Positions 44,027 to 60,939 of a stretch of 64,000 bases of DNA are shown here, one piece after another (the stretch's first letter is position 1; each line of letters starts with the position of its first letter). The DNA comes from a virus. Below the pieces are notes generated by a model. The model was not told where the DNA came from and did no database searches. It worked only from the letters and a program-made list of their open reading frames with translations. Made by a program: the position numbers and the translations under genes. Location: IMG/VR virus record IMGVR_UViG_3300028706_000553. One strand, written 5' to 3'.

Positions 44027-44263
44027 ATGAAAGTAGTAAATAAAGCATACGGTCAACGGGATATTGGAATATATAGAACAGCTAATATTGCTAATCCCGC
44101 AGTGACTAAACAAGATCATGAAATGAGTGTTGGAAATACCGAAATAAGACATTTTACATGTGTTTCTTGTAAATTACCTTTTTCTATGAATTTGCCACCA
44201 GGATTAACAGAAGCAAAAACAAAAGCAAAGTGTCCTAATTGTTATACTGAGCAGGTGGCATGA
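44027..44263 (+). CDS. zinc-ribbon protein
   Basis: CVSC...CPNC. Confidence 0.6.
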   Translation: MKVVNKAYGQRDIGIYRTANIANPAVTKQDHEMSVGNTEIRHFTCVSCKLPFSMNLPPGLTEAKTKAKCPNCYTEQVA

Positions 44264-44269
44264 TATAAT

Positions 44270-46962: not shown

Positions 46963-47144
46963 TGAAAGACTGGGTCACTAAACGACTTAAAGAAATTAAA
47001 TTACCAGGTAAAGTACTACAGTTTCCTTTAAGAACGGAAGATGTAGAACGGAAGATAAAAGCTGGCTTAAATTATGATAGATTCTGCGGAGATGATGATC
47101 ACACCACCCTCTATTCTCAAAGCAAAGAACAACCAGACAGTTAA
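46962..47144 (+). CDS. hypothetical protein
   Basis: TAATG overlap with the ATPase stop. Confidence 0.45.
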   Translation: MKDWVTKRLKEIKLPGKVLQFPLRTEDVERKIKAGLNYDRFCGDDDHTTLYSQSKEQPDS

Positions 47145-47613
47145 GATATATTCCTACCACCTAAATATATCTAATGATGAAATAATTGACACGATCTATA
47201 GTAATATTTCTAATAGAGAACGAGAAACCCCTGCTAAAGCGGATTTAACAGGATGGCATTTACCTGGTTGTAAAGAATTAAAACAGATAGTTGAAGATCT
47301 AACATATAAACAAGCAGTTGAGCATTATCATAGAGGATTTGGACAGTTAAAGATAACACAGTGTTGGGGTATAGTTTATAATCGTGACGACTTTGCTAAA
47401 ACACATAATCACTTCCCGAATACATGGTCTGCAGTATATTATCCTAAATTAACTGATGATAGTGGTACATTATGTTTTACTGATTTAGATGTAAGAATTA
47501 AACCTGAAGTAGGAAAGCTTTTGATATGGGAAAGCTATATAAAACATTGTGTAACTAAAGTTAGAGGTGAACGACTAGCTATTGCATTCAATATGAATCA
47601 TGAACATGAATAA
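47074..47613 (+). CDS. 2OG-Fe(II) oxygenase-like protein
   Basis: WG..Y...HNH..TWSAVYY, LLIWESYIKHCV, RLAIAFN. Confidence 0.8.
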   Translation: MIDSAEMMITPPSILKAKNNQTVKIYSYHLNISNDEIIDTIYSNISNRERETPAKADLTGWHLPGCKELKQIVEDLTYKQAVEHYHRGFGQLKITQCWGIVYNRDDFAKTHNHFPNTWSAVYYPKLTDDSGTLCFTDLDVRIKPEVGKLLIWESYIKHCVTKVRGERLAIAFNMNHEHE

Positions 47614-47812
47614 ATATGAAGAACTGAGAGAAAATACTGAATCTATAGGTGGCACAAATCAATTTGAAGTGCGCACGTTTAGATCATCAGGTAATTTTCT
47701 AATCATTGATGAAGATGGTGACTTTATCATCATAGATCGAGACCACGCTGAATTCGTTGGTTCATGTATCTTGACGCACTTAATGCAAACAAAAGAGATT
47801 GTACCGTCATGA
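47600..47812 (+). CDS. hypothetical protein
   Basis: overlapping ORF chain. Confidence 0.5.
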   Translation: MNMNKYEELRENTESIGGTNQFEVRTFRSSGNFLIIDEDGDFIIIDRDHAEFVGSCILTHLMQTKEIVPS

Positions 47813-48408
47813 ATTATTATAAAAATTATTTAAAAGAAAATTTAGATCTTTTACTATTAAGTGAATTAAAAACTATTAAAGACTGGAAAGACTTTAATCG
47901 TAATAATAGTCATATGAAAGAATATTATGGTGAGGGTAAATTTATTAATAGAATACGACAATATTTTCATTCTAAGGAATGTATAAAATGGATTGAAAAA
48001 GAGACAGGTATAGATGGTCTGCTTGTTGACCCTTACAGTGTTGGAGAAGGGGTTTCTTTAATGGAATCACAAGATCAACTCGATCCTCATATAGATTTTA
48101 ATTGGAATGATAGAATTAAAATGCATCGCGCTGTTAATTTATGCGTATATCTTGGTGAGTGCGAAGGCGGTGAACATTGTCAATATGATGATAAAAAAGA
48201 AAATGTTGTTTCTAATCACATACCAGAACATAATTCTGCTATATTATTTAAACACAGTGAAACAAGTCCACACGGTGTCAAGCCTGTAACTAGCGGTCAA
48301 CGATTTACAATGAGACAGTTTTATTATAAAAGTGAAGCCACCGTAGTTAATCCCCACCAATCACTTTACTGGTATAACCCAGATAGACAAATGCCAACAA
48401 ATTCGTAA
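47809..48408 (+). CDS. 2OG-Fe(II) oxygenase (prolyl hydroxylase-like)
   Basis: LDPHIDFN (HxD), R.VNL..YL, SPHGV, RFTMRQFYY; ATG 47809 in ATGA overlap. Confidence 0.85.
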   Translation: MNYYKNYLKENLDLLLLSELKTIKDWKDFNRNNSHMKEYYGEGKFINRIRQYFHSKECIKWIEKETGIDGLLVDPYSVGEGVSLMESQDQLDPHIDFNWNDRIKMHRAVNLCVYLGECEGGEHCQYDDKKENVVSNHIPEHNSAILFKHSETSPHGVKPVTSGQRFTMRQFYYKSEATVVNPHQSLYWYNPDRQMPTNS

Positions 48409-48435
48409 ATTAAAAAATGATTAAAGGATTATAAA

Positions 48436-49329
48436 ATGATATATTTGTATGGTGATAGTTTTGTAGAAAATGAAGCAGCTGAAAACTTAGGTCAGCGTGA
48501 CCATGAGCGATGGTATCAAATGCTTTCTAAAAATCTTGATGAAGAGCATGAAAATTTTGGTGAATGTGGTGAAGGCCCTGCTTCGTCATTAGCAAAATTT
48601 CACCGGCATTACGAGCAAGGATATTTTAAACCAAATCCTAAGTTTGTATTTTTCTTATCTAGTCCATATAGAATTCCTTGGACTTGGTTAAAGCCACAAG
48701 AAGATCCAAAATATAGTCCTAGTGGTAAGATGGATAGAACCTCCGGAATTGGGATATCTTCAGCATATCAAGATTGGGATGTTGAATATGAGAAAATTAA
48801 TCACCCTCACCCTCGAGATGTTCCACTATACGCAGAATATTATTATACACCAGAAGAATATTTCGCGCAAACATCGGTTTATGAGTCATTACAGGATGAA
48901 TTGGATCATCAAAACTTAAAGAATGTTGCATATCTTCATACACTATCTAAGTTGAATAATTGGCCAATGATGGTTTTTCGCGTCTTTGGTATGAATCCTA
49001 ATCCTTTCAGAAAAAAATACGATGTATCGCTCTTTGATTTTGAAAAACTTAATGACGATACATTTCATTTTTATTCAACTCCAATGAATGATCACTCATC
49101 TAAAGAATGGGTTGATGAATGGATAGCTGAGGCAGGAACAATGAATCACTTTACTCATCGTAATCATATAATATTAAGTAATATAATGACAAATCATTTT
49201 CTACAAACATATGGCACCGCCTCATTTTTAACAGAACAATGGCACGAACATTTTATCCGCAGTGTGGAAAATCAACAGCATCGACGTGATCGCGACCCAA
49301 ATACCTTTGTAGATTTTATATATGAATGA
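48436..49329 (+). CDS. SGNH hydrolase/acyltransferase-like protein
   Basis: YGDSF at the N-terminus, NH near the C-terminus. Confidence 0.65.
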   Translation: MIYLYGDSFVENEAAENLGQRDHERWYQMLSKNLDEEHENFGECGEGPASSLAKFHRHYEQGYFKPNPKFVFFLSSPYRIPWTWLKPQEDPKYSPSGKMDRTSGIGISSAYQDWDVEYEKINHPHPRDVPLYAEYYYTPEEYFAQTSVYESLQDELDHQNLKNVAYLHTLSKLNNWPMMVFRVFGMNPNPFRKKYDVSLFDFEKLNDDTFHFYSTPMNDHSSKEWVDEWIAEAGTMNHFTHRNHIILSNIMTNHFLQTYGTASFLTEQWHEHFIRSVENQQHRRDRDPNTFVDFIYE

Positions 49330-50234
49330 AATTTTATATTACCCCACCAACAGTTAATAATCCAGATCTAACACCCTTATTAAACGTTGAAGGCCCCATA
49401 GAGGTCTATGATGTATGGGAGGTGTTTAGAGAAGATATTATTAAGTTTTTAGAAGACTTACCTAATGAAGTAACGTATCATACTGCTGATGGTAATCTAA
49501 AGAATGATAAACTTAAAATAGTTTATGAACCTTATTCTTTCCTAACAGAAATTAGTCAACGCAGTAGGGACATATATTATGATCACCCAGACCTTCACGG
49601 ACCTATAAAATATAATTTTATTAGCTTATGTTCTGCTCCTCAAGAATACAAGTATGATTTATTAGATAGATTCCACACCAATAAATACTTTATATACTCT
49701 AATTATCCTTATTCTAAAGTCAACGCAACAGATTATAAATGGCATCCGGACACTCCATTAATCGAATATAAAGGTAAAAATGGGTTTTCTAATCTTGACA
49801 TAGTAAAACTTACAGAGATAGAATTTGATCATCGGGGATTTCAAGAATTAATACCGTTAGAATATTATCAGACTAATTGTGATTTAGTATTAGAGTCAAC
49901 TATTGACACTCTTTTTATTACAGAAAAGACATGGAAGCCTATAGTATTTAAAAAACCATTCTTAGTTTGGGGCAGTCAAGGACTTCACGCTAAGTTAAAA
50001 GATCTTGGTTTTGAATTATATGATGAGTTATTTGATTATAGTTTCGACGGCGGAGTGTTTGATCCTAATTGGAGGCGCCTAGGTAGATTGTGTGAATCAA
50101 TAAAACCTTATATGCAAATGGAGCCTGATACATTTAAGAAGAAGATTAAAACAGTTAAAGATAAAATAGAATTTAATTATAAACATTATTGCGAGTTATT
50201 TGATGTGGAGACACGTAACAGAGTTCGAAGATAA
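49326..50234 (+). CDS. GT10-like glycosyltransferase-related protein (paralogue 1)
   Basis: LVLES..FITEKTWKPI..KPFLV.G..LGFELYDELFDYSFD. Confidence 0.55.
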   Translation: MKFYITPPTVNNPDLTPLLNVEGPIEVYDVWEVFREDIIKFLEDLPNEVTYHTADGNLKNDKLKIVYEPYSFLTEISQRSRDIYYDHPDLHGPIKYNFISLCSAPQEYKYDLLDRFHTNKYFIYSNYPYSKVNATDYKWHPDTPLIEYKGKNGFSNLDIVKLTEIEFDHRGFQELIPLEYYQTNCDLVLESTIDTLFITEKTWKPIVFKKPFLVWGSQGLHAKLKDLGFELYDELFDYSFDGGVFDPNWRRLGRLCESIKPYMQMEPDTFKKKIKTVKDKIEFNYKHYCELFDVETRNRVRR

Positions 50235-50826
50235 GATAGCAGAGTATGCTGGTTCTAAATATGCTGTTGCAATGGATAGTTGCACCAATGCTATATTCAT
50301 GTGTGCTAGATATCTTAGAAAAAGACAAATGTGGAAAAAGGTAAGGATAGATTTACCTAAACAGATATATGTAAGTGTTCCACAAATGCTATGGCATCTA
50401 GGATATTGGCTTCACTTTGAAGATATAAAATGGAAGGGATATTATCCAATAAAGCCGTTGAATATAGTAGATTCAGCATGTCGATTTACTAAGGATATGT
50501 ATATACCTAATACCTATTATTGTATAAGCTTTCACCATAGGAAGATATTATCAACAGTAAGAGGTGGTATGGTATTAACAGATGATAAGGATTTTGTTGA
50601 CTGGTTAAGGCCTCGAATCTATATGGGTAGGAATAAAGATGTTATGTCTAAAGATGATAATGTATCTATAGTTGATGCTTATAATATGTATATGCCACCA
50701 GAGACAGCAATGGAAGGGTTACTTAAATTTAGAGAGCTACCCATGGATAATCAGGATTGCGGTGACAGTAATATGTATCAGGATATAAGTGGATTAAATT
50801 GGACAAGAACTATATACGATGATTAA
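50200..50826 (+). CDS. DegT/DnrJ/StrS PLP aminotransferase (short)
   Basis: FEDKIAEYAG..YAVAMDSCTNA, DSAC, SFHHRK (PLP Lys), GGMVLTDD. Confidence 0.85.
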   Translation: MMWRHVTEFEDKIAEYAGSKYAVAMDSCTNAIFMCARYLRKRQMWKKVRIDLPKQIYVSVPQMLWHLGYWLHFEDIKWKGYYPIKPLNIVDSACRFTKDMYIPNTYYCISFHHRKILSTVRGGMVLTDDKDFVDWLRPRIYMGRNKDVMSKDDNVSIVDAYNMYMPPETAMEGLLKFRELPMDNQDCGDSNMYQDISGLNWTRTIYDD

Positions 50827-51939
50827 ATGATATTTTGTGATATACCTAAGATAGAAGAAGTTCAGGGATTTCCTGGAGTTATTACAGAAGACTTAAAAAA
50901 GCAATTCAAATCTCTTCCTAAAAATAGTGATATTTGCATAATAGATAGATCTGAGGTTGAAAGATTATGGCCTTTAAATCCTTTGGAAGCCACAACTGTA
51001 CATGATTTAAATGATGCATTATCCGAACACTCTGGCAAAATATATTATCTTTGTGCTGATTTAAATATAAAAGAAAGAATATCAAAAACTGATTATAAAT
51101 TTATACCACTAGTTCATCCATATTGTTTTCGTCCTAATATTAGTAATGCTTTACAATATGAAATAAAAACAGAATATACACATAACTTTATAAATTTAAC
51201 CAGTGCTCCTAAAGCATTTAGAATAGTACTTTTAGAAAAATACTATAAGCATCCTAAGTTTGAATATTCATTGAATCCATTCTTTCATGGAAAACAATTT
51301 AAGCATGTATCTATAAAACATCCGTTACAATGGAATCATGATTATATTCAAAATATTTCCCCTTATCATTTTATATTAACAGATGTCCCCACAAGGGAGT
51401 TGACAGAGTTCTCTGAAAATTGGAAACCAGGGATGTTAGATAAGTCATACTTTGATGATTATCTACCTAAAGAAGCATATAATTGTTGTTGTGATGTTGT
51501 TACTGAATCTTACGTTGCATATGATTCTATATTATTTACTGAGAAAATATTCAAAGAAATATTATTTAAGAGACCTTTCATAGCTCTGGGAGCAAAGAAT
51601 CAAAATCATATAATGGAGGAATTAGGATTTAAGCTATATGATGAAATATTTGATTATAGCTTTGATAAAGCTAACACTCTTCAAGGGAGATTTGAAGGAT
51701 TTTGTAATCAAATAGACCGCTACATTGATGAAGAGGTTGAAGAGTTTTCAGAAAAGTTATCTGTATTGTCAGATAAAATTGAGTATAATAAAGATTTACT
51801 TGAGAGAAGGTATAATGAATATGAAGACTGGTTTAGGGTGATAGGCTTATGTCATGCAAGTGATGATATATTTGTTGAATCTTTAGAATTAGATAATCTA
51901 TTTAAAAAAGTGTTAAATGATAGCGTTAAACCTAGATAA
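50827..51939 (+). CDS. GT10-like protein (paralogue 2)
   Basis: DVVTES..FTEKIFK..RPFIALG..LGFKLYDEIFDYSFD. Confidence 0.55.
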   Translation: MIFCDIPKIEEVQGFPGVITEDLKKQFKSLPKNSDICIIDRSEVERLWPLNPLEATTVHDLNDALSEHSGKIYYLCADLNIKERISKTDYKFIPLVHPYCFRPNISNALQYEIKTEYTHNFINLTSAPKAFRIVLLEKYYKHPKFEYSLNPFFHGKQFKHVSIKHPLQWNHDYIQNISPYHFILTDVPTRELTEFSENWKPGMLDKSYFDDYLPKEAYNCCCDVVTESYVAYDSILFTEKIFKEILFKRPFIALGAKNQNHIMEELGFKLYDEIFDYSFDKANTLQGRFEGFCNQIDRYIDEEVEEFSEKLSVLSDKIEYNKDLLERRYNEYEDWFRVIGLCHASDDIFVESLELDNLFKKVLNDSVKPR

Positions 51940-53044
51940 TTTCTTTTTTGATGAATCAGAAATAGATGAATTATTAAAGGACTTAGATGATGATATCTTA
52001 CTGTTTGATTTACCAGAGGGATCTAGATTTGATGGAGTATTTTCTAAAGTCCATGATACATTAGAAGATAATAATGTATGGTATCTTTGTTCTGATTTAA
52101 ATATTAAAGAAAGATATAAGAAGTGGTGTATAGATAATAAAAGGCCTGAAATATATAATACTCTATATTTTCCTTTTACTGTTAGGATAGACAGTATGCA
52201 TTTTGTAAAGCAAGAAACCATTGATGAGTTAAATAGTTTTCAAAAAAATAAAAATTTTATACAATTAACAAGTAGCCCTGCTCCTTATAGAATAGCAACG
52301 CTTAGTAATTATTATAAGCATTCAAATTATGAATATTCCCTAACACCTCAATTTCATTTTACAAAAGATGATGAGAATAGCTGGATAGATCGTGTGCATT
52401 CATGTTTATTTGATGAATTTGATATATTATCTAATACGAGAACACTTACAGAGATAGATATATCAGAAGAGTGGATAGAAGAAACTAAAGGATACATAGG
52501 CCCTAAAGAGCTAACCACTATTAATAATAAACTTTTTGATAAAGATGTATTTAATACTTTTCTTCCCAAAGAATGCTTTCAATCAAATTGTGATGTAGTA
52601 GTTGAAACATATGTCGAAGGACCTATCTACTATACAGAAAAAACCTGGAAAGAAATATTATTTCAACGTCCTTTTATTTTGTTAGGTAATAAAGGAAGCA
52701 ATCACAAATTAGAAGAATTGGGTTTCAAACTTTATAATGAAATATTTGATTATAGTTTTGATTTATTAGATAACCCTAAAGAAAGAATGAGAGGTTTCCA
52801 TAAACAAATCGAAAGATATTTAGAAAGTGATATAGAAGCATTCACTAATAAGCTTAGAGACATAGAAGAGAAGCTTATATATAATAGGAATAAATATATA
52901 AGTACCGTTGTAGATATAGAACAAAAGTTAGAATTTAAACCATACGAATTATATCACTATTTGTTTTTAAGTTCATTTTCAGAGAAAAGAGAATATCTTC
53001 CTAAACCTAAATTTGATATTATAAAAAACATTGCTAGATTTTGA
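51917..53044 (+). CDS. GT10-like protein (paralogue 3)
   Basis: DVVVET..YTEKTWK..RPFILLG..LGFKLYNEIFDYSFD. Confidence 0.55.
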   Translation: MIALNLDNFFFDESEIDELLKDLDDDILLFDLPEGSRFDGVFSKVHDTLEDNNVWYLCSDLNIKERYKKWCIDNKRPEIYNTLYFPFTVRIDSMHFVKQETIDELNSFQKNKNFIQLTSSPAPYRIATLSNYYKHSNYEYSLTPQFHFTKDDENSWIDRVHSCLFDEFDILSNTRTLTEIDISEEWIEETKGYIGPKELTTINNKLFDKDVFNTFLPKECFQSNCDVVVETYVEGPIYYTEKTWKEILFQRPFILLGNKGSNHKLEELGFKLYNEIFDYSFDLLDNPKERMRGFHKQIERYLESDIEAFTNKLRDIEEKLIYNRNKYISTVVDIEQKLEFKPYELYHYLFLSSFSEKREYLPKPKFDIIKNIARF

Positions 53045-53717
53045 TTTCACTATATCAAGCTATTGTAATGCAGCTTGCCCTTCCTGTAAAAGATATGAAG
53101 ACCATAATTTTATAGAATATAATCCTGATCAATCATTGCATCCAGGACTAAAACAACTACATATGGATTTTGATACCTACAAGTCCATTATAGAAAGAGA
53201 TATCGAACTGTTTAAAGATAAAAGCGTTACATTTGAGGGAGAATTAGGAGATGCTCTCGTTCACCCAAATATATTAAAATTTATAGATTATAGCACCGGC
53301 GTATTTAAAAGACTCAAAATAGTTACTAATGGAGGGCTTCGATCATCTAGGTTTTTTAATGATTGTGGAAATAAATATAACAACTTGGAGTTTCAATTCT
53401 CTATTGATGGATTAGATAATGAAAGCAATCAAAAATATAGAAGACGCGTCAACACACCAAAAGCATATGAGAACATGATCGCCTATAAACAAAGTAAATA
53501 TGGTGCTAGAATGTCATCCTGGCAGTATGTAATTTTTCAACATAATTGGTTTGAAATCCCGGAGATATTAGATATTGCAAAAAAGTATGATATAATGATT
53601 GATATGAAAATCAATAGCCGACCTAAGTTCCGAATTGAAGAGAAATATATTCCAAACGTTATAGAGATGTATGAACAAAATAAGTTCGAAAGAAGCAGAT
53701 TGATATTGGCAAATTAA
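53031..53717 (+). CDS. radical SAM protein core without SPASM
   Basis: CNAACPSC, GELGD, TNGGLR, FSIDGL, WQYVIFQHN. Confidence 0.88.
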   Translation: MLDFDFTISSYCNAACPSCKRYEDHNFIEYNPDQSLHPGLKQLHMDFDTYKSIIERDIELFKDKSVTFEGELGDALVHPNILKFIDYSTGVFKRLKIVTNGGLRSSRFFNDCGNKYNNLEFQFSIDGLDNESNQKYRRRVNTPKAYENMIAYKQSKYGARMSSWQYVIFQHNWFEIPEILDIAKKYDIMIDMKINSRPKFRIEEKYIPNVIEMYEQNKFERSRLILAN

Positions 53718-54382
53718 TGTTAGATACTGAAGATTGTTTATTTAATTTCGAAATCTCATCACATTGTAATGCAAAGTGTCCTAGTTGTTTTAGAACTGAG
53801 TTTAATGAATATGTTCCTAAACCTTATAAGCATTTAAAAGCGGATGATTTCGAAGATATAGTTTATAAGAATATAAGTTGGTTTAGAAATCATTCATATA
53901 GTAAGATACAGGCTAGATTTTGTGGGGAGATAGGCGACCCTTTAATGAATCCAGAATTAGATAGATTAACTTTTATAGCAGAGAATGTATTTGATTCAGT
54001 TGAAATATTTACTAACGGCGGTCTGCGCAATCCAAAGTGGATAAAGGAGTTTTTAATTAAGCACAAAACAACTAATTTAGTATTTGGAATAGATGGCTTA
54101 ACAGATGAAACCAATCAAATGTATAGAGTAAGTGTTAATACTGATTTAGCTTTTCGTAATATGAAAGAAGCTGTTAAACATGGACATACAAGATGGGATT
54201 ATACTATTTTTAGTCATAATTATCATGAAGTATCAGATGTTATAAAATTAGGTAAAGAATTAGAAGTAGATTTGCTATGTAGATTTAATGGAAGACAATA
54301 CAACAAATTAGATGATGAGTATTATGAACATTGTGAGAATCTCTTAAAAACTAATGAAATAAAGTACTATATATGCAAATAG
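53717..54382 (+). CDS. radical SAM protein core without SPASM (paralogue)
   Basis: CNAKCPSC, GEIGDP, TNGGLR, FGIDGL, WDYTIFSHN. Confidence 0.88.
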   Translation: MLDTEDCLFNFEISSHCNAKCPSCFRTEFNEYVPKPYKHLKADDFEDIVYKNISWFRNHSYSKIQARFCGEIGDPLMNPELDRLTFIAENVFDSVEIFTNGGLRNPKWIKEFLIKHKTTNLVFGIDGLTDETNQMYRVSVNTDLAFRNMKEAVKHGHTRWDYTIFSHNYHEVSDVIKLGKELEVDLLCRFNGRQYNKLDDEYYEHCENLLKTNEIKYYICK

Positions 54383-54648
54383 AGTGTGGATTCTATAATA
54401 CTAAGTTTAAGATATGGGATCAATATGAAATAGATATGGATATGAACTTATGGCCGTGCTGTCATATATATTTGCAGCATTTAGAATTTGGTAAAGTAGA
54501 TGAATGTATCTCTCATATTGATAATAACTTAAGAACTAATACTATAGAAAATATACGCAATGAGTTTAGTAAAGTTTTAAATGAAGAAAATTGGAAAGAT
54601 GAAAAAACATGTCCACCCCGCTGTATAAAAATTTGCCAAAAGAAATAA
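54373..54648 (+). CDS. stand-alone SPASM/twitch domain
   Basis: C...IDMDMNLWPCC...C..IC. Confidence 0.7.
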   Translation: MQIECGFYNTKFKIWDQYEIDMDMNLWPCCHIYLQHLEFGKVDECISHIDNNLRTNTIENIRNEFSKVLNEENWKDEKTCPPRCIKICQKK

Positions 54649-54974
54649 ACAAAACGGCTCGGAATTTGTCTGAAGCTCATGAAGATTTAGTTTATTGTAT
54701 AGGCTGGCATGAAAATAAAGAATGGAAAGAGGTTGAAGTTGCATCTGATTTCTCCGTTTATCCCTGCTGTTCCCTTCACGCTGAGCATCAACTAAACGAT
54801 ACATACTTCGATAAAAAATTAGATAGCATGGACAAAGATTGGAATAATTTAAAGCATAATAAATTAAAAGATATTTTAGAAATATGGCATCAACATATAA
54901 AACCTGAATATTGGAAAGATGAAAAAACTTTACCAGGCTGTTGTAATCACATCTGTAGGATAAAAAATGATTAA
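54609..54974 (+). CDS. stand-alone SPASM/twitch domain (paralogue)
   Basis: C...VASDFSVYPCC...CC.HIC; true start possibly TTG ~54633. Confidence 0.7.
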   Translation: MSTPLYKNLPKEINKTARNLSEAHEDLVYCIGWHENKEWKEVEVASDFSVYPCCSLHAEHQLNDTYFDKKLDSMDKDWNNLKHNKLKDILEIWHQHIKPEYWKDEKTLPGCCNHICRIKND

Positions 54975-55674
54975 TGTAATAGAATATAACGCAGCATATT
55001 ATCAGTTTAAGCTTATGTTTGAAGGATGTTTAGGACCATTAGAAGATATCCATTTAAATCATGATTTAAAACCCTCACCATATAATACAAAAGGTGGTAT
55101 TCAAGACCCTGATGATAATACATTTTATGGTCTAATTGAAAAACTATTTAAAGAAGTAGTTCATAATGGCTGGGAATTTAAATTGAGGTGGAAAGAGTTT
55201 CAACAAAAAGTATTAAAACCTATTTTTGATGAGGAAAAGATTGTAGTCCAAGAGCTTCCCTCTATTAAGATATTTCCATCTGGATATGAATGGCTCTATG
55301 TAGAAAATCCTATAGAAATCGATGGAAGAAAAGTTAATCGGCATTTAGAGAGTGATTCTCCCTTTTATCATCCCATATTTGAAACGACCTTTGTATTGCC
55401 TCTTACAGATATGGATGAAGATAATGGATTGTTTGTAGAGGATGAAATGTATACAAACAAATATGGAGAGATGTTATATTTTAACAATATTCATCATCAT
55501 GGAGGGTATGTATATAATAGATCAAAAAATAGTAGAGTGACTTTAGATTTTAAAGCATTACCCCATAGTAAGTATGACGTTAACATTTTAACAGATAAGC
55601 TAATTAAAAAAAGAGGCAAATTAATTGAACAAAAAGAATTTTATAGAATAGGTAATTATTATACATTAATATGA
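54967..55674 (+). CDS. StrG-like oxygenase-fold protein
   Basis: Q..P.I, H.E..YH..E..F.LPLTD, YGE..F...H...N....RVTLDF. Confidence 0.6.
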   Translation: MINVIEYNAAYYQFKLMFEGCLGPLEDIHLNHDLKPSPYNTKGGIQDPDDNTFYGLIEKLFKEVVHNGWEFKLRWKEFQQKVLKPIFDEEKIVVQELPSIKIFPSGYEWLYVENPIEIDGRKVNRHLESDSPFYHPIFETTFVLPLTDMDEDNGLFVEDEMYTNKYGEMLYFNNIHHHGGYVYNRSKNSRVTLDFKALPHSKYDVNILTDKLIKKRGKLIEQKEFYRIGNYYTLI

Positions 55675-56429
55675 ATAAGATAATAATCTTTGGTGATAGC
55701 TTTGGGGATCCTGACTATAATAAGAAAAAAGCCACAGCTTGGTATGAGATGTTTAAAGGTTATGAAGTTACTAATCATTGCTTAGCTGGAACCGGGCCTC
55801 ATTATTCTATTAAGAACTATTATGACTTTATAAGGAATGAATCCCACAAAGATGAGTGTATAATTATATTCTTATTAAGTGGAGAAGATAGAATAGCATT
55901 TCCTAATACAGATCCTCAGCACATATCTCATATAAATTGGGATTTTGTAGCAGATCAAAGTTGGTTTGCTGATAACTCAAAACTCGTTAAGGAAAAAGAA
56001 TATTATCATAAACATAGATTAGAAATAGATTATATGTTTAAAACGATGAGAGAGGAGATATTATGGAGCAATTATAAAAATTTATCAATGCTATGGATGA
56101 ACTCATTCTTATTTAATATTAAAACAATTACCTGTTTTATTTCGTATCCACACGAGTCTATATATGGACTTACATTAAAAGAGATTTCGTTATTATTCAA
56201 GTCACGATTAGCCTTAACGGATAATGATAATTTTTTACTATATCCATATTCTTTATCGGATGTGGCTGAAGGAGAGAAGGAAGCTAAAGATGTTGACGAT
56301 AGGAGAAATCATTTATCTCAATATAATCATGAAATATTATATAATAACTTAAATACTTTTCTAAACGGCTCTAATAATTTTACAGATCATATAACAAAAG
56401 TTAGTAATAATGATTTTATCTACGATTAA
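55671..56429 (+). CDS. SGNH-like protein (paralogue of 48436)
   Basis: FGDSF, RRNHLS..NH. Confidence 0.65.
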   Translation: MNKIIIFGDSFGDPDYNKKKATAWYEMFKGYEVTNHCLAGTGPHYSIKNYYDFIRNESHKDECIIIFLLSGEDRIAFPNTDPQHISHINWDFVADQSWFADNSKLVKEKEYYHKHRLEIDYMFKTMREEILWSNYKNLSMLWMNSFLFNIKTITCFISYPHESIYGLTLKEISLLFKSRLALTDNDNFLLYPYSLSDVAEGEKEAKDVDDRRNHLSQYNHEILYNNLNTFLNGSNNFTDHITKVSNNDFIYD

Positions 56430-56434
56430 ATATT

Positions 56435-57448
56435 ATGAATTTTAATACTCATATTCAATCATGTAATGGTTGGGATCCTCTTAAAGAGATAATCGTTGGC
56501 GATGTAACAGGTGCGAGGATCCCACCACTAAATCCCTCCATGAAAAACTTCATGTTTGCTAATCTAACTGATTCAGAGATAGTTAGCATATGTAAACCGT
56601 GGATGTACCCAACTCGAGTTATAGAAGAAACACAAGAAGATCTAGATTTATTAGCAAAGACATTATACGCTTTACATATTCGCGTATATAGGCCTGAGAA
56701 GAAAGTATATGGGTGGATGAATTACTGTCCACGTGATATATTCTTAGTGTTAAATGATACTATCATCGAAACACCATGTGTAATGAGTGAAAGAATAAAC
56801 GAATCATTTGCTTATAGACATATGTTAAATAATATTGATGATTATAGTAAGTGGATACAGGCACCCACCCCACAATACTTAGATATATCATTTAATTTTA
56901 CTGATTTATCTAAGCCCACGTTACAAAATACAGAAATTATGTTCGATGCTCCCAATGTCGTTAGATTAGGCACAGATTTATTATATCAGGTGAGCAATAG
57001 TGGTAATGAAAAAGGATATGATTGGTTAAAACATACATTCCCTGAGTATACTATACATCCAGCATATCAGTATTCAGGAGCACATTTTGATAGCACAGTA
57101 ATACCGTTAAGACCAGGCCTCGTATTATTAAATGGACATAGATGTAATGAAGATAATTACCCAGAAATATTTAAGAAGTGGGATAAGATATTCTTTACAG
57201 ATATAGTAGATCAGGACTCTGAGAATAGTGCAATAGCATCTAGCGCAATCGGATTAAATATATTAAGTATTAATGAACATACAGTTGTTATAGATAAGAA
57301 TCAAAAACCACTAATGAAAGAGTTAAAAAAGTGGGGTATAGATTCAATACCATTACAACTACGACACGCAAAGACGTTAGGTGGCGGATTCCATTGTGTG
57401 ACTCTGGACTTACATAGAGAAGGTAAGTTAGAACAATATGACTACTAA
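56435..57448 (+). CDS. amidinotransferase (glycine / inosamine-phosphate StrB1 family)
   Basis: NGWDPLKEIIVG, YCPRD, FDAPN, SNSGN..G, HFDST, LGGGFHC.TLD.HR. Confidence 0.92.
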   Translation: MNFNTHIQSCNGWDPLKEIIVGDVTGARIPPLNPSMKNFMFANLTDSEIVSICKPWMYPTRVIEETQEDLDLLAKTLYALHIRVYRPEKKVYGWMNYCPRDIFLVLNDTIIETPCVMSERINESFAYRHMLNNIDDYSKWIQAPTPQYLDISFNFTDLSKPTLQNTEIMFDAPNVVRLGTDLLYQVSNSGNEKGYDWLKHTFPEYTIHPAYQYSGAHFDSTVIPLRPGLVLLNGHRCNEDNYPEIFKKWDKIFFTDIVDQDSENSAIASSAIGLNILSINEHTVVIDKNQKPLMKELKKWGIDSIPLQLRHAKTLGGGFHCVTLDLHREGKLEQYDY

Positions 57449-58292
57449 GAAGTGCGCTGCATTATATAATCATACTCATATAAGACCCGGAGGTATAATA
57501 TATCCTTGTTGTAGATTTAAAAAGCAATTAGGGTATTTTGATGGTGATTTTGATAGCGTATTACACTCAAAGGAGTATGTCGAGTTACGTGAAAGGTTTG
57601 AGAAAGAGGAGATACCTGAATGTCAGAAATGCTGGGATCATGAGAACGCTGGCATACAATCAGAGAGACAAGTCTTTAATGAGAAGTGGAATTGTGATGA
57701 AATAAAATTAAGAGAGCTATGGATAGGAATAGATAATATATGTAATTTAAAATGTGTTATGTGTAATAAGGAGTATTCTAATCAATTTACAGGAGAGGTT
57801 ATTTCTACTAACGAGATAAAAAGTATTCCTGATATAGATAAGGTGGTGTTTTTAGGAGGAGAGCCTTTGATGAATGAAAGGTATTTCCGTCTACTACGAC
57901 AAATGAATAGAAGCATATTACATCTAACAATAATCACTAACGGTATGTTTAAATTACAAGATAAATGGAAGGAGATGTTAAGAGAATGTAAGCATGTAGT
58001 ATTTTTTGTAAGTATAGATGCGTGTGGTGAGCTTTGTGAAAGAGTTAGGGATGGTTCCAAGTGGGAAACAGTAGTAGAAACGGTAGAGGATTTAGAAACA
58101 GAGTGGCCAGTAACTGTTAATACTGTTATTCATAAAGATAATGTTAAGGGTATAGATGATTTGAAGAAATGGATAGATAAGAGACCGTGGCAAATCAATA
58201 TACTTACATATCCTTTTCATTTGAGGGTGACATCAGATGATAAACAAAGAATTATGAGAGACTTTAATCAATATTTTACTTATACGATATGA
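57438..58292 (+). CDS. radical SAM protein with N-terminal SPASM/twitch
   Basis: N-terminal C..YPCC..C..CW, then CNLKCVMC, GGEP, TNG, SID. Confidence 0.88.
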   Translation: MTTKKCAALYNHTHIRPGGIIYPCCRFKKQLGYFDGDFDSVLHSKEYVELRERFEKEEIPECQKCWDHENAGIQSERQVFNEKWNCDEIKLRELWIGIDNICNLKCVMCNKEYSNQFTGEVISTNEIKSIPDIDKVVFLGGEPLMNERYFRLLRQMNRSILHLTIITNGMFKLQDKWKEMLRECKHVVFFVSIDACGELCERVRDGSKWETVVETVEDLETEWPVTVNTVIHKDNVKGIDDLKKWIDKRPWQINILTYPFHLRVTSDDKQRIMRDFNQYFTYTI

Positions 58293-60079
58293 AACGCATT
58301 GCTTTTGTCGAGCTATCACATATATTTTCTAATCAAATAAAGTTACCATATTCTACAGGATGTATATGGAGCTATTGTAGGACAGACGATGAGATTACAA
58401 ATAATTATTCTTTTGATGTTCACGACTGGGTATATGTACTTAATGATTCATTTGATGTAGATAAAACAGCTCAACACTTAGCTGAGTGTGACATTGTGGG
58501 TATCTCATATTTTGTATGGAATACTCATGCATGCGATAAAGTATGTGCTAAGATAAAAAAGATAAACCCTAAATGTATAATCATATACGGTGGATTAGGC
58601 ACTCCAAAATATGGTCGATGTGATCAGTTTTTAAAAGATAGACCGTTCATTGATATGATAGTACATAATGAGGGTGAGATTGTCTTTAAGAATATATTAA
58701 AAGCATTATTATATAAACAGGATCTTAGGGACATTAAAGGTATTACTACTCATTTATTTCAAACACCATTAGATGGCAGGGTGAAAGATATGTCATCTAT
58801 GCCTAGTCCATATCTCGATGGATTATTCGACGATCTTATAGCAATTAAAAAACACACGTATGCATGGGAAAGTTTAATAGAATTAGAACGCGGCTGCCCA
58901 TATACATGTACATTCTGTGAGGTAGGCGATAGGCATTGGACTAAAATATTTAAACAAGATTATAATAAGTTAGTAAAAGAGATTGATTGGATATCGAATA
59001 AAAAGATAGATTACTTGCATCTTATAGATAATAATTTCGGAATGTATAAGGAACATAAGATTATATCTGATTTGCTTATAGATAAACTTAAAACAACTGG
59101 TTATCCTAATGCACTTAATATAACATGGGCAAAGCATAAAAAACCATACTTATTTGATATAGCAGAAGACTTATGGAAGGTTGGTCTTAATAAAAGTGTC
59201 ACGATCGCTCTACAGTCGATGAATTCACTTACATTAAAGGCGATCGAAAGAGCTAATGAGAATACTAATCTAAAAGAGGTAGTAGGTTATTTAAAAAGTA
59301 GAGGCATGCCTGCTTATATAGAAACTATTCTTGGTCTACCGGAGGAATCATTAGATAGTTTTAAAGAGGGTCTTTATAGATTGATTGACGACGTGAATTA
59401 TCATAATTATATTGGAATATATGTAATGGTTGCTCTTCCTAATACTCCATTTGGAGATCCTGAATATCTTAAAAAATATGGTGTACAAATAAAGCAAACA
59501 TCTCCCGCATTCTTTCATCATGAACATCCACCAGACCAATTATTAGAAGACGTTAACGATGTAGTAGTCGGCTCTAATAACATGTCGTTTGATGATTACT
59601 TAGAAGCAACAGGATGGAAGTGGTTTATGATATCTCTACATTTCCTAGGATGGCTTAGAATATTAGCTTTAGAATTAAAGAATAATCATAACATATCAAT
59701 GAGAGAGTTTTATAATGGATTATTTGAATGGTTTACAAACAACGACAGATCATTATTGTATAGAGAGTATACAGTAACAATGAGACTATTAAGGAAGGTA
59801 TTTAATAGAGAGATTCCATGGGGACGTAGAGTATCAGGCGCTTCTAATATCTATTGGGAGTATGAAGAAGCAACTGCTATACACATTGCTAAAGAGAAAG
59901 ACCGTTTCTATGGAGAAATAGGTGACTATTTAAAAGATGAATATGGTTTTGGATATTCAATAGTTAATGATCAATACAATAAGATGAAAGACCCTTACGA
60001 AGTCTATAATGGTAACTTAGAAAAGTGGGCTCGCGAATGTATGTGGTGGGGTCGGAGAGCAGAGAGGTTTTTTGTATGA
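58289..60079 (+). CDS. cobalamin-binding radical SAM protein
   Basis: N-terminal B12-like GISYFVWN..IIYGG..NEGE, then RGCPYTCTFC, DNNFG, ILGLP. Confidence 0.88.
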   Translation: MKRIAFVELSHIFSNQIKLPYSTGCIWSYCRTDDEITNNYSFDVHDWVYVLNDSFDVDKTAQHLAECDIVGISYFVWNTHACDKVCAKIKKINPKCIIIYGGLGTPKYGRCDQFLKDRPFIDMIVHNEGEIVFKNILKALLYKQDLRDIKGITTHLFQTPLDGRVKDMSSMPSPYLDGLFDDLIAIKKHTYAWESLIELERGCPYTCTFCEVGDRHWTKIFKQDYNKLVKEIDWISNKKIDYLHLIDNNFGMYKEHKIISDLLIDKLKTTGYPNALNITWAKHKKPYLFDIAEDLWKVGLNKSVTIALQSMNSLTLKAIERANENTNLKEVVGYLKSRGMPAYIETILGLPEESLDSFKEGLYRLIDDVNYHNYIGIYVMVALPNTPFGDPEYLKKYGVQIKQTSPAFFHHEHPPDQLLEDVNDVVVGSNNMSFDDYLEATGWKWFMISLHFLGWLRILALELKNNHNISMREFYNGLFEWFTNNDRSLLYREYTVTMRLLRKVFNREIPWGRRVSGASNIYWEYEEATAIHIAKEKDRFYGEIGDYLKDEYGFGYSIVNDQYNKMKDPYEVYNGNLEKWARECMWWGRRAERFFV

Positions 60080-60939
60080 CGGAGAATTGGAATGTTCTAC
60101 AGGGAAGTGCAAATGATAGACCCTCAAGTGCTAGAGATATGTTTACTTCCCGATTACGAAAATATAGAGAATTATATCATCCTGTAGAAGATGTTGATGT
60201 TCCTAAAAAATATCGGGTGATTAGTATGGTTAATCAACCGAGAATAGCTAGAATATTAACACTTAGAGAATTAGCGGGACTACCTGGTTTTATATATTCA
60301 TATAACAATACAGAAATTAATACTGTAGGAGAAAAGGGAGAAGCTACAGATGAGTCATTTATGAATTATGTGGATAGATTACAATCATATAAATCTTGGA
60401 ATTGGGTGAAAGACGGAAACGCTATAAAGTACAAGAATATATTTGATCTCGCGGATGAGACAATATATGTTGATTTACCATGTGAATATAATATGAGTAA
60501 TGACGTATTCGATATGACTAAACGAATTACTTTTCAGACACCATTTACAGATGGTTTTGAAGACGACACAGATGCATTTTATGATTTCTTACCAGTGCAG
60601 GAGTGGTTAGAGTCGGAGATAGATTTAGTTTGTGAAACACAACAAGTAAAGCAATGGCATTTTAGCGAGAAAACGTGTAAGCCATTAGGACACTGTAAGC
60701 CATTTCTAGTTATCGGATGTGTTGGGTGGTATAAGATATTTGAAGAGTTAGGGTTTAAATTATACGATGAGTTATTCGATTATAGCTTTGATGAGATAGA
60801 ATCATTTAAAGATAGACATCAAGCAATAATGGCTCAGATAAAAGACATCCTAAATATGGATAGAGATGTATTAAAGAAGAAACTACTTGACATCCGAGAC
60901 AAAATATATTATAATAAAAGACAATTATTAGAGAAATGA
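60076..60939 (+). CDS. GT10-like protein (paralogue 4)
   Basis: DLVCET..FSEKTCKP..KPFLVIG..LGFKLYDELFDYSFD; ATG 60076 in ATGA overlap. Confidence 0.55.
   Translation: MTENWNVLQGSANDRPSSARDMFTSRLRKYRELYHPVEDVDVPKKYRVISMVNQPRIARILTLRELAGLPGFIYSYNNTEINTVGEKGEATDESFMNYVDRLQSYKSWNWVKDGNAIKYKNIFDLADETIYVDLPCEYNMSNDVFDMTKRITFQTPFTDGFEDDTDAFYDFLPVQEWLESEIDLVCETQQVKQWHFSEKTCKPLGHCKPFLVIGCVGWYKIFEELGFKLYDELFDYSFDEIESFKDRHQAIMAQIKDILNMDRDVLKKKLLDIRDKIYYNKRQLLEK

What the first reader, a model, noticed from the sequence alone, without database searches (positions are those of the whole stretch)
47074..60939. ~14 kb phage cluster resembling an aminocyclitol/aminosugar (streptidine-like) tailoring pathway
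Seen, contiguous and translationally coupled: two 2OG oxygenases, two SGNH proteins, four GT10-like proteins, a DegT aminotransferase, three SPASM-associated radical SAMs, a StrG-like protein, an amidinotransferase and a B12 radical SAM. Known: streptidine synthesis uses DegT-type aminotransferases plus the StrB1 amidinotransferase; BtrN is a SPASM radical SAM dehydrogenase in aminocyclitol synthesis; B12 radical SAMs often methylate such scaffolds. Inference: the phage builds an amidinated/acylated/methylated sugar and transfers it to its DNA, virion proteins or the host surface (receptor masking), or makes a small molecule. This is the best candidate for an undescribed system.
Basis: inference. 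Interest (0 to 1): 0.85.

Follow-up and report, generated by a model that had tools for sequence, protein, structure and literature searches.

The report
Phage guanidino-sugar tailoring and transfer island
A marine T4-like phage carries a real, conserved 14-kb row of soluble enzymes, including a streptomycin-type amidinotransferase, that most likely builds an unusual amino/guanidino sugar and attaches it to a target nobody has identified.

Summary
47074-60939 is one co-directional, overlap-coupled row of 18 ORFs. They comprise two 2OG oxygenases, a third StrG/PhyH-like one, two SGNH-fold proteins and four paralogous GT-B glycosyltransferases of a family with no Pfam model. There is also a 208-aa mini-DegT that keeps the PLP Lys and Asp. 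Two radical SAM cores have their twitch domains split off as separate ORFs, and there is one N-terminal-twitch radical SAM. The amidinotransferase matches StrB1 (PDB 1bwd, E 2e-75, catalytic motifs intact), and the last enzyme is a TokK/CysS-like cobalamin radical SAM methylase.

A core (2OG, SGNH, GT-B, mini-DegT, StrG-like, amidinotransferase, B12 radical SAM) is syntenic in six viral contigs. In more distant T4-like contigs the same amidinotransferase sits among NDP-sugar dehydratase/epimerase, RmlC-like, PhyH and GT genes. This supports amino-sugar tailoring.

An aminocyclitol (streptidine) pathway is not supported: I found no cyclitol synthase, kinase or exporter. DNA glycosylation is disfavoured, because a complete relative lacks ThyA-family and TGT genes and the GTs are acidic. 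The acceptor remains unknown.

Similar modules were noted in Campylobacter phages (2010), pelagimyophage host-recognition clusters (2020) and cyanophage S-SCSM2R (2025), always without a function. This scan has flagged the same kind of island on other DNA: 77 notes in at least 64 genomes.

The parts
47074..47613 (+). 2OG-Fe(II) oxygenase (2OGa). Variable: not found in the syntenic relatives.
   Evidence: Pfam PF13759, E 3.5e-13. No tblastn match in L003-L008.
47600..47812 (+). 70-aa acidic protein of unknown function, conserved upstream of 2OGb.
   Evidence: Present in L003-L006 at 41-93% identity, evenly conserved, not precursor-like.
47764..48408 (+). 2OG-Fe(II) oxygenase (2OGb), a core member.
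   Evidence: Pfam PF13640, E 3.1e-13. Syntenic in L003-L008 and L047.
48436..49329 (+). SGNH-fold esterase/acyltransferase-like protein (SGNH1).
   Evidence: Same family as 55671, with invariant GDS, H214 and H220.
49326..50234 (+). GT-B glycosyltransferase paralogue a.
   Evidence: BLASTP to the other three paralogues, E 3e-20 to 3e-28. 82-90% identical in L003-L006.
50200..50826 (+). Mini-DegT: a 208-aa sugar aminotransferase-like PLP protein that lacks the C-terminal domain.
   Evidence: Pfam PF01041, 46.6 bits against a cut-off of 19.8. Best NCBIfam hit PseC, best PDB hit perosamine synthase. VD(S/A)A Asp and SFHxxK Lys are invariant in 7 loci.
50827..51939 (+). GT-B glycosyltransferase paralogue b.
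   Evidence: 39% identity to 51917, E 4e-52.
51917..53044 (+). GT-B glycosyltransferase paralogue c (the one modelled).
   Evidence: AF2 pLDDT 86, pTM 0.89. All Foldseek PDB hits are GT-B enzymes. VIA Z 10.2 to T4 BGT, 9.1 to T4 AGT, 9.0 to FUT9. Invariant E241-K242.
53031..53717 (+). Radical SAM core 1 (CX3CX2C) without an auxiliary-cluster domain.
   Evidence: NCBIfam N_Twi_rSAM core region, E 5e-9. Paralogue of 53717, E 9e-37.
53717..54382 (+). Radical SAM core 2.
   Evidence: Pfam PF04055, E 9.6e-10. 26% identity to CP220 gp083.
54373..54648 (+). Free twitch/SPASM-like Cys-rich domain 1.
   Evidence: Paralogue of 54609. Aligns to the C-terminus of 358-aa single-chain radical SAMs in L014/L015.
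54609..54974 (+). Free twitch/SPASM-like Cys-rich domain 2.
   Evidence: BLASTP E 6e-7 to residues 261-320 of L014/L015 radical SAMs, sharing the YPCC and CxxC motifs.
54967..55674 (+). StrG/PhyH-like 2OG oxygenase, always directly upstream of the amidinotransferase block.
   Evidence: Invariant H126-x-E/D, H178 and R190. ESM atlas neighbour 'StrG', PhyH, score 0.95. Synteny.
55671..56429 (+). SGNH-fold esterase/acyltransferase-like protein (SGNH2).
   Evidence: AF2 model pLDDT 69. VIA top hits are GDSL esterases and OatA/PatB O-acetyltransferases, Z 9-10.9.
56435..57448 (+). StrB1-type L-arginine amidinotransferase.
   Evidence: PDB 1bwd E 2.1e-75, SxtG 1.7e-47, AGAT 4e-37. FDAPN, HFDST and GGGFHC motifs are invariant.
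57438..58292 (+). Radical SAM with an N-terminal twitch domain. It is an insertion specific to this window.
   Evidence: NF033640 164.4 bits against a cut-off of 170. Pfam SPASM at 6-66 plus Radical_SAM at 100-245. Absent between AmT and B12RS in L003-L008.
58289..60079 (+). Cobalamin-dependent (class B) radical SAM methyltransferase.
   Evidence: KedN5 family, E 5e-64. PDB TokK 1.3e-58, CysS 7.8e-41. Follows AmT in 6 of 6 close loci and in many distant ones.
60025..60939 (+). GT-B glycosyltransferase paralogue d. The likely start is ATG 60076.
   Evidence: BLASTP to 51917, E 1e-21. ATGA overlap. A perfect TTGACA-17-TATAAT at 60887-60915 marks the next transcription unit.
41270..44947 (+). Upstream syntenic context: intein-bearing IscU, IscA and a GT25 glycosyltransferase.
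   Evidence: PHROG NifU-like. Pfam GT25, E 1.9e-14. The 43664, 44027 and 44270 families are syntenic in L004-L006.

Best explanation
The row is a cytoplasmic sugar-tailoring and glycosyl-transfer module.

Shown. The enzyme types are established, and so are their tight linkage, a conserved core, and the embedding of the same amidinotransferase among NDP-sugar enzymes in other T4-like phages.

Inferred pathway. A host nucleotide sugar is oxidised to a keto-sugar. The twitch radical SAM enzymes probably do this in a BtrN-like way, whereas related loci carry SDR dehydratases instead. The mini-DegT then transaminates the keto-sugar. The StrB1-like enzyme converts the new amine to a guanidino group, using arginine as donor. 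The cobalamin radical SAM C-methylates the sugar, the 2OG/PhyH-like oxygenases hydroxylate it, and the SGNH proteins edit O-acyl groups. The four GT-B paralogues, together with a nearby GT25, attach the product or build a short glycan. The phage's own IscU and IscA feed the many Fe-S enzymes.

Acceptor. It is not identified. I favour a protein or envelope glycoconjugate, meaning virion fibres or capsid, or the host surface, over DNA or a free metabolite.
For: - StrB1 is by far the closest solved relative of the amidinotransferase, and the catalytic motifs are kept.
- The core order 2OG-SGNH-GTB-miniDegT...StrG-like-AmT-B12 is kept in L003-L008 and L047 at 50-97% identity.
- In other architectures AmT sits beside a GDP-mannose-dehydratase-like SDR, an RmlC-like epimerase, PhyH, a TPP enzyme, GT7 and the same GT-B family.
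- GT-B fold, pLDDT 86. One BFVD relative is fused to a UDP-Glc/GDP-Man dehydrogenase domain.
- SGNH fold.
- Every cluster protein is soluble and acidic, with no TM segment.
- S-SCSM2R and CP220 carry homologous AmT with radical SAM and GT genes.
- Contigs from seawater RNA libraries tile the cluster at 99% identity or more. This is weak evidence, because DNA carry-over is possible.
Against: - No step has biochemical support.
- The window cluster itself has no nucleotidyltransferase, SDR dehydratase or RmlC, so the starting sugar is guessed.
- StrB1's known substrate is a cyclitol phosphate, not a nucleotide sugar.
- The twitch radical SAMs belong to an unstudied family, and SPASM/twitch enzymes often act on peptides.
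- The mini-DegT lacks a whole domain and may not be an aminotransferase.
- No acceptor, flippase or lipid-carrier enzyme was found.
Confidence: 0.55

Rival explanations
1. The cluster makes a free aminoglycoside- or aminocyclitol-like small molecule (a streptidine-type guanidino compound). It would be released or kept in the cell, for example to inhibit competing phages or microbes.
For: StrB1-like, StrG-like and StrS/DegT-like proteins occur together. From established knowledge of aminoglycoside pathways, they also use twitch radical SAM dehydrogenases (BtrN), cobalamin radical SAM methylases (GenK), PhyH-type oxygenases (KanJ) and GT-B transferases. PMC12801897 calls the S-SCSM2R homologues 'antibiotic synthesis genes'.
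Against: None of the 18 ORFs is a cyclitol synthase, kinase, phosphatase, exporter or resistance gene. Related loci carry NDP-deoxysugar enzymes rather than cyclitol enzymes. Four paralogous GTs are more than a pseudo-oligosaccharide needs.
Confidence: 0.15
2. The module hypermodifies phage DNA, by glycosylation or amidination of a modified base, to evade restriction, as T-even glucosyltransferases do.
For: The top VIA-align neighbours of the GT model are T4 beta- and alpha-glucosyltransferase, Z 10.2 and 9.1. The phage is T4-like. A QueE-like gene lies upstream.
Against: Those Z scores are tied with FUT9, OGT and others. The 100%-complete relative G001, which carries the cluster, has no ThyA-family gene and no TGT/DpdA. 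ThyA-family enzymes are needed for hmC, hmU and 5hoC (PMC13326640). The GTs are strongly acidic, pI 4.9-5.5. Five or more GTs exceed known DNA systems.
Confidence: 0.1
3. The radical SAM/twitch, 2OG and B12 enzymes mature a peptide or protein in a RiPP-like way. This could include amidination of Orn/Lys side chains, and the GTs would glycosylate the same protein.
For: SPASM/twitch enzymes are mostly peptide maturases. There are weak NCBIfam hits to YhhB/YhhC, sactipeptide and ranthipeptide maturases and to RiPP C-methyltransferases. A small conserved ORF, 47600, lies next to 2OGb.
Against: All these hits are far below family cut-offs. ORF 47600 is evenly conserved like a folded protein and is absent from L007. 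The AmT context in other phages is NDP-sugar enzymes. The nearest solved AmT acts on a small molecule.
Confidence: 0.1
4. The GTs and tailoring enzymes rewrite the host's LPS O-chain or another envelope glycan during infection, to block superinfection. This is the reading given for pelagimyophage host-recognition clusters. It is a sub-case of the best explanation with a specific acceptor.
For: PMC7029224 proposes this for GT-rich, radical-SAM-bearing hypervariable islands of pelagimyophages and cyanomyophages. A GT25 (LPS family) is syntenic upstream. In type-B loci the module abuts neck gene gp15, the place where the paper locates the island.
Against: No lipid-carrier transferase, flippase, polymerase or membrane protein lies in the cluster. 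Lytic T4-like phages have little time to remodel the surface. There is no direct evidence.
Confidence: 0.2

Closest known systems
Radical SAM plus 'glycine amidinotransferase' module of Campylobacter phages CP220/CPt10 (Timms et al. 2010, PMC2853527)
   Same: Both are T4-like myoviruses. CP220 has a homologous amidinotransferase (25-28% identity, E 1e-26) flanked by homologous radical SAM genes and two NDP-sugar-transferase-like genes. Its function is also unknown.
   Different: CP220 has five or six single-chain radical SAMs. It has no B12 radical SAM, GT-B family, mini-DegT, SGNH or StrG-like gene detectable by tblastn. The host is an epsilonproteobacterium, not marine plankton.
Streptomycin streptidine branch: StrB1 (PDB 1bwd) with StrS and StrG
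   Same: The AmT is most similar to StrB1 (E 2e-75) with conserved catalytic motifs. DegT/StrS-family and StrG/PhyH-like neighbours are present.
   Different: There is no inositol/cyclitol-forming enzyme, kinase, phosphatase, exporter or resistance gene. The context is nucleotide-sugar enzymes and many GTs. Phage AmTs form their own clades apart from the Streptomyces and main bacterial clade.
Host recognition cluster (HRC) of pelagimyophages and cyanomyophages (Zaragoza-Solas et al. 2020, PMC7029224)
   Same: It is a hypervariable island of marine T4-like phages near tail-fibre genes, rich in glycosyltransferases and with radical SAM cassettes. Type-B loci here abut the gp15 neck gene.
   Different: The paper describes the island only in outline and reads the GTs as LPS O-chain modifiers. 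It does not describe the amidinotransferase, B12 radical SAM, mini-DegT or this GT-B family. Whether this window's cluster lies between VrlC and gp14 was not tested.
Synechococcus phage S-SCSM2R ORF301-310 ('antibiotic synthesis genes', PMC12801897)
   Same: It is the only cultured phage with the mini-DegT (39% identity) and the AmT (37.5%), next to 2OG oxygenases, a radical SAM maturase and GTs including GT25.
   Different: tblastn detects no B12 radical SAM and none of this GT-B family. Its AmT falls in a different clade, on a long branch. The authors offer no mechanism.
T4 DNA beta- and alpha-glucosyltransferases (PDB 1c3j, 1y6f)
   Same: GT-B fold. They are the top VIA-align neighbours of the modelled paralogue, Z 10.2 and 9.1.
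   Different: 6-8% identity, and the scores are tied with many unrelated GT-B enzymes. The proteins here are acidic, and no hydroxymethylase partner is present in the complete relative.

Membership tests
Amidinotransferase (StrB1/AGAT/SxtG, pentein fold) | Full-length sequence similarity to characterised members | tested here: met
   1bwd E 2.1e-75 over residues 10-337. SxtG 1.7e-47, HsvA 1.8e-45, AGAT 4e-37.
Amidinotransferase (StrB1/AGAT/SxtG, pentein fold) | Catalytic Cys-His-Asp residues (the Cys lies in GG.FHC) | tested here: met
   FDAPN, HFDST and GGGFHCVT align with the StrB1 motifs and are invariant in 11 phage and metagenome sequences. Which residues are catalytic comes from my own knowledge of StrB1/AGAT.
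Amidinotransferase (StrB1/AGAT/SxtG, pentein fold) | Arginine-dependent amidino transfer to a defined amine acceptor | not testable with these tools
   Needs an enzyme assay.
Streptidine/aminocyclitol (aminoglycoside) pathway | A cyclitol-forming enzyme (inositol-phosphate synthase or 2-deoxy-scyllo-inosose synthase) | tested here: not met
   None of the 18 ORFs gives such a Pfam, NCBIfam or PHROG hit, and all are otherwise assigned.
Streptidine/aminocyclitol (aminoglycoside) pathway | Inosamine kinase/phosphatase, exporter or self-resistance gene | tested here: not met
   No kinase, phosphatase, transporter or TM protein lies in 47074-60939.
CAZy GT10 fucosyltransferases | Match to the family model (Pfam Glyco_transf_10) | tested here: not met
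   No Pfam hit at E <= 0.01 for the four paralogues, nor at E <= 0.001 for 48 relatives from the profile search.
CAZy GT10 fucosyltransferases | GT-B fold with the conserved E-K of the 'TEK' nucleotide-sugar motif | tested here: inconclusive
   The GT-B fold is clear and E241-K242 are invariant. However, FUT9 at Z 9.0 is tied with T4 BGT at 10.2 and many others.
SGNH/GDSL hydrolases | SGNH fold with a block-I Ser in G-D-S | tested here: met
   VIA top 50 hits are almost all GDSL/SGNH enzymes, Z up to 10.9. G8-D9-S10 are invariant in 17 members.
SGNH/GDSL hydrolases | Block-V catalytic His with Asp (DxxH) | tested here: inconclusive
   H214 and H220 are invariant, but no conserved DxxH Asp was found. 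There is no Pfam hit for the window ORFs. hhalign gives 93-94% probability to a Pfam-positive relative over the N-terminal part only.
DegT/DnrJ/EryC1/StrS sugar aminotransferases | Family model match, PLP-Lys and pyridine-N Asp | tested here: met
   PF01041 46.6 bits against a cut-off of 19.8. SFHHRK aligns with the Lys of perosamine synthase. The Asp and Lys are invariant.
DegT/DnrJ/EryC1/StrS sugar aminotransferases | Full two-domain architecture of about 360-390 aa | tested here: not met
   The protein has 208 aa. It matches profile positions 24-97 and about 174-214 only and has no C-terminal domain. This short form is conserved in 7 loci.
Class B cobalamin-dependent radical SAM methyltransferases | CX3CX2C radical SAM core and homology to characterised members | tested here: met
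   TokK E 1.3e-58, CysS 7.8e-41. KedN5 subfamily E 5e-64, but below its cut-off. The CPYTCTFC motif is in the sequence.
Class B cobalamin-dependent radical SAM methyltransferases | N-terminal B12-binding domain | tested here: inconclusive
   PF02310 21.2 bits against a cut-off of 32.1. The relative in L015 scores 38 bits.
NCBIfam NF033640 N_Twi_rSAM | Score above the curated cut-off with an N-terminal twitch domain | tested here: inconclusive
   57438-58292 scores 164.4 bits against a cut-off of 170. Pfam SPASM lies at residues 6-66, ahead of the radical SAM core.
T-even type DNA glycosylation system | ThyA-family dCMP/dUMP hydroxymethylase or hydroxylase that supplies the acceptor base | tested here: not met
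   PF00303 is absent from the 100%-complete relative G001 and from four partial relatives. The requirement is taken from PMC13326640.
Pelagimyophage/cyanomyophage host recognition cluster | Position between VrlC and neck gene gp14 | not tested
   The window shows tail-fibre-like genes at 31906-35517 upstream, but no gp14 or VrlC was identified. Type-B loci abut gp15.

The most novel reading that the evidence does not exclude
Marine and freshwater T4-like phages make a guanidino-bearing, C-methylated deoxy-amino sugar, a sugar class not known from any glycan, using a StrB1-type amidinotransferase on a nucleotide sugar. A large Pfam-less GT-B family then attaches it to their own virion proteins (fibres or capsid). 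The result would be a positively charged glycan coat that alters adsorption or shields virions.
Probability: 0.25. Interest if true: 0.85.

Novelty: new variant of a known kind. Interest (0 to 1): 0.62.

Why it matters
The amidinotransferase alone has more than 7,000 close homologues in public metagenome proteins. The GT-B family has about 12,000 50%-identity representatives and no Pfam model. This is therefore a very common block of ocean-virus coding capacity whose function is unknown. If the product is a guanidino sugar on virions or host envelopes, it would add a new sugar chemistry. It would also extend StrB1-type, cobalamin and twitch radical SAM enzymes to a new substrate class, and it would reveal a new layer of phage-host recognition. 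Two cultured phages, S-SCSM2R and CP220, carry homologous modules, so the question can be tested now.

Tried and rejected
- **Megablast.** The cluster and the structural region gave no match against GenBank phages.
- **tblastn against isolated phages.** The GT-B paralogue found nothing, and the B12 radical SAM found only one weak gut-phage hit.
- **Sequence-profile searches of PDB.** The GT-B family, the StrG-like family and the f3 family gave nothing useful.
- **hhalign.** It did not link the StrG-like family to the PhyH or f1 families, nor f3 to the mini-DegT. Those links rest on motifs only.
- **Whole genome.** No genome is held for this window.
- **Promoter and terminator scans.** Counts were not above shuffles.
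- **T4 late-promoter motif TATAAATA.** Nine copies, all on the + strand and mostly just upstream of structural genes. None lies within 44000-62000, but the total is not above chance and read-through from 43840 cannot be excluded, so expression timing stays open.
- **RiPP precursor idea for ORF 47600.** Rejected, because conservation is even along the ORF and it is absent in L007.
- **RNA-library contigs.** They cover most of the cluster, but uncovered bins and possible DNA carry-over mean expression is not proven.
- **Complex prediction.** Not used. The fused single-chain homologues already link the radical SAM cores with the free twitch ORFs.
- **AmT tree.** It used 15 phage representatives and 69 genome rows of 300-420 aa. 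It had no AGAT outgroup, only a midpoint root and the quick method, and CP220, S-SCSM2R and L035 sit on long branches.

Full report
**What the window is.** PHROG hits to large terminase, tail sheath, portal, scaffold and major head protein show a T4-like myovirus. The capsid protein is 63-65% identical to those of OM43 phage Melnitz, cyanophage P-TIM40 and pelagiphage HTVC008M. GC content is about 33%. No GenBank phage matches at the DNA level. The stretch 54967-60939 occurs almost word for word in 14 seawater or marine metagenome runs.

**Checking the observation.** From 47074 to 60939 there are 18 ORFs, all on the + strand. They overlap by 1-55 nt or are separated by at most 27 nt. The last gene most likely starts at ATG 60076, in an ATGA overlap with the previous stop codon. 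A perfect TTGACA-17-TATAAT at 60887-60915 lies just before the next ORF and marks the 3' boundary.

**Components.**
- *2OG oxygenases.* Pfam confirms two, at 47074 and 47764.
- *DegT-family protein, 50200-50826.* It scores above Pfam's cut-off but has only 208 aa. It keeps the PLP lysine (SFHHRK, aligned with the lysine of perosamine synthase) and the upstream VDSA aspartate. Both are invariant in seven loci. The C-terminal domain is missing.
- *Radical SAM proteins, 53031, 53717, 57438 and 58289*.
  - 57438 has its SPASM/twitch domain at the N-terminus and scores 164 bits against NCBIfam N_Twi_rSAM, whose cut-off is 170.
  - 53031 and 53717 are paralogous cores without an auxiliary domain.
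  - The two following Cys-rich ORFs, 54373 and 54609, are paralogues of each other. They align to the C-terminal 100 residues of 358-aa single-chain homologues in other phage contigs, sharing the YPCC and CxxC motifs (E 6e-7). This is a split gene, not stray peptides.
- *B12 radical SAM, 58289-60079.* It is homologous to the cobalamin C-methylases TokK (E 1e-58) and CysS and to the KedN5 subfamily.
- *Amidinotransferase, 56435-57448.* It matches StrB1, the inosamine-phosphate amidinotransferase of streptomycin synthesis, at E 2e-75. That is far better than its matches to SxtG or AGAT, and the FDAPN, HFDST and GGGFHC motifs are kept.
- *StrG-like oxygenase, 54967-55674.* It has no Pfam hit. It shows an invariant HxE/D...H...R pattern typical of 2OG oxygenases, and a language-model neighbour cluster is named StrG with PhyH.
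- *Four GT paralogues, 49326, 50827, 51917 and 60025*. A confident AF2 model (pLDDT 86) has a GT-B fold. T4 beta-glucosyltransferase (Z 10.2), T4 alpha-glucosyltransferase (9.1), FUT9 (9.0) and many others are effectively tied.
  - E241-K242 are invariant. This recalls the GT10 'TEK' motif, a resemblance I draw from memory.
  - Neither these proteins nor 48 relatives hit any Pfam model. The family has about 12,000 50%-identity representatives.
  - I therefore call them a Pfam-less GT-B family, not GT10.
- *SGNH proteins, 48436 and 55671.* They share invariant GDS and His residues. The model of 55671 matches almost only GDSL esterases and the SGNH domains of O-acetyltransferases such as OatA and PatB (Z up to 10.9).

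**Is there a conserved core?** Thirty-nine viral contigs encode a relative of the amidinotransferase. Six of them (L003-L008, 50-97% identity), plus a 'MAG' contig that is clearly phage (L047), keep the same order: 2OGb, SGNH, GT-B, mini-DegT, then StrG-like, amidinotransferase and B12 radical SAM.
- The split radical SAM block is present in some of these loci and replaced by extra SGNH genes in others.
- The N-twitch radical SAM at 57438 is an insertion found only in this window.
- 2OGa (47074) is not conserved.
- IscA and the GT25 gene upstream (44270) are syntenic too.

**What the wider context says.** Three other neighbourhood types exist for the same amidinotransferase.
- *Type B.* About 25 contigs, next to neck gene gp15. 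The order is an uncharacterised 294-aa protein with an invariant D...SLSK motif, the amidinotransferase, one or two small cupin/2OG-like proteins, a GDP-mannose-dehydratase-like SDR and, often, the B12 radical SAM.
- *Type C.* An RmlC-like epimerase, SGNH proteins and a radical SAM upstream of the amidinotransferase.
- *Type D.* Two GT7-lectin fusions, two N-twitch radical SAMs, three members of the same GT-B family, the amidinotransferase, PhyH, three SDRs, RmlC and a TPP enzyme.

A structural relative of the GT in BFVD is fused to a UDP-glucose/GDP-mannose dehydrogenase domain. These contexts point to nucleotide-sugar tailoring.

Among cellular genomes, StrB1-like genes are widespread, but in about 50 genomes they sit in a different conserved context. 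In a quick maximum-likelihood tree the window's protein falls in a well-supported phage-only clade, apart from the Streptomyces and main bacterial clade. That tree has no outgroup and only a midpoint root.

**Mechanism proposed (inferred).**
1. A host nucleotide sugar is oxidised to a keto-sugar. Here the twitch radical SAMs probably do this, in the manner of BtrN, while SDRs take this role in other architectures.
2. The mini-DegT transaminates it.
3. The StrB1-like enzyme amidinates it to a guanidino group, with arginine as donor.
4. The cobalamin radical SAM C-methylates it.
5. The 2OG/PhyH-type enzymes hydroxylate it, and the SGNH proteins edit its acyl groups.
6. The GT-B paralogues transfer it.

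All cluster proteins are soluble and acidic (pI 4.5-7.6) with no TM segment. The chemistry is therefore cytoplasmic, and the phage-encoded IscU/IscA upstream fit the Fe-S demand.

**Which target?**
- *DNA is disfavoured.* The 100%-complete relative that carries the cluster has no ThyA-family gene and no TGT/DpdA. ThyA-family enzymes are required for hmC, hmU and 5hoC glycosylation (PMC13326640). The GTs are also very acidic.
- *A free aminocyclitol antibiotic is disfavoured.* There is no cyclitol synthase, kinase, exporter or resistance gene.
- *A RiPP-type reading is not excluded but has only sub-threshold hits*.
- *What remains.* The acceptor is most likely a protein or envelope glycoconjugate, on the virion or the host surface. 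I could not discriminate between these.

**Literature.** Timms et al. 2010 noted an interchangeable module of five radical SAM genes plus a putative glycine amidinotransferase in CP220/CPt10 and assigned no function. Zaragoza-Solas et al. 2020 described GT-rich hypervariable 'host recognition clusters' with radical SAM cassettes in pelagimyophages and proposed O-chain modification. The 2025 S-SCSM2R paper listed its homologues as unexplained 'antibiotic synthesis genes'. I found no paper that assigns a product.

**Earlier notes of this scan.** They describe the same kind of island in many other genomes. I treated them as leads only.

**Expression.** Contigs of four seawater RNA libraries tile the cluster at 99% identity or more. 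This is compatible with expression in situ, but DNA carry-over is not excluded.

**Verdict.** This is a real, conserved and very widespread phage tailoring island. Its enzyme types are now well defined, but its product and acceptor remain unknown. It is a new variant of phage glycan and sugar-tailoring islands that have been noted before but never characterised.

Noticed in passing
window:4719-5441 (+), with 3934-4722 and 2056-3177: A phage ORF with a PycTM (Pycsar effector) domain (Pfam E 7.7e-20). It lies next to a class-3 lipase ORF and a solute-binding-protein family 3 ORF. A defence-effector domain in a lytic phage is odd.
   Followed up: no
window:26901-27782 (+): A QueE-like radical SAM (PHROG E 7.6e-59), although the complete relative has no TGT/DpdA gene. 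The role of a 7-deazaguanine step is unclear.
   Followed up: partly
window:50200-50826 (+); L001:12299-12886; L007:12327-12914: A conserved 195-211-aa 'mini' DegT. It keeps the PLP Lys and Asp but lacks the C-terminal domain and part of the large domain. It may be a minimal sugar aminotransferase or may have been repurposed.
   Followed up: partly
window:53031-54974 (+); L014:4253-5329; L015:6604-7680: Radical SAM cores and twitch domains are split into four ORFs in the order core-core-twitch-twitch. The same protein is a single 358-aa chain in type-B loci.
   Followed up: yes
window:49326-53044 and 60025-60939; P0169-P0312: The GT-B family has about 12,000 representatives at 50% identity, 8,058 of them at E <= 1e-10. 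None of 48 sampled members hits Pfam. Many are 680-830-aa proteins that match it in two to four stretches.
   Followed up: partly
L015:9114-9998 and 20 relatives (alignment A4): An uncharacterised 294-aa family always directly upstream of the amidinotransferase in type-B loci. It has invariant D152 and S-L-S-K181, which looks like a PLP-enzyme motif. There is no Pfam or PDB sequence hit.
   Followed up: partly
L055-L126 (bacterial genome loci): StrB1-like amidinotransferases in about 50 diverse bacterial genomes (Halieaceae, Hyphomicrobiaceae and others) share a different conserved neighbourhood that includes a protein of about 1,420 aa. I did not work out what it makes.
   Followed up: no
window:60887-60915 (+); TATAAATA sites at 5437, 8506, 10754, 14149, 15112, 17847, 28536, 29707 and 43840: A perfect sigma-70 consensus lies directly after the cluster. 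All nine T4-late-promoter-like motifs are on the + strand, mostly just upstream of structural genes, and none lies inside the cluster.
   Followed up: partly
L047-L054 (genome contigs): Contigs binned as Chloroflexota, Bdellovibrionota, Verrucomicrobiales, Puniceispirillum and Synechococcus lacustris genomes carry the phage-type module. L047 has phage genes at 94-100% identity to L007/L008. These are probably mis-binned phage contigs or prophage-like islands.
   Followed up: partly
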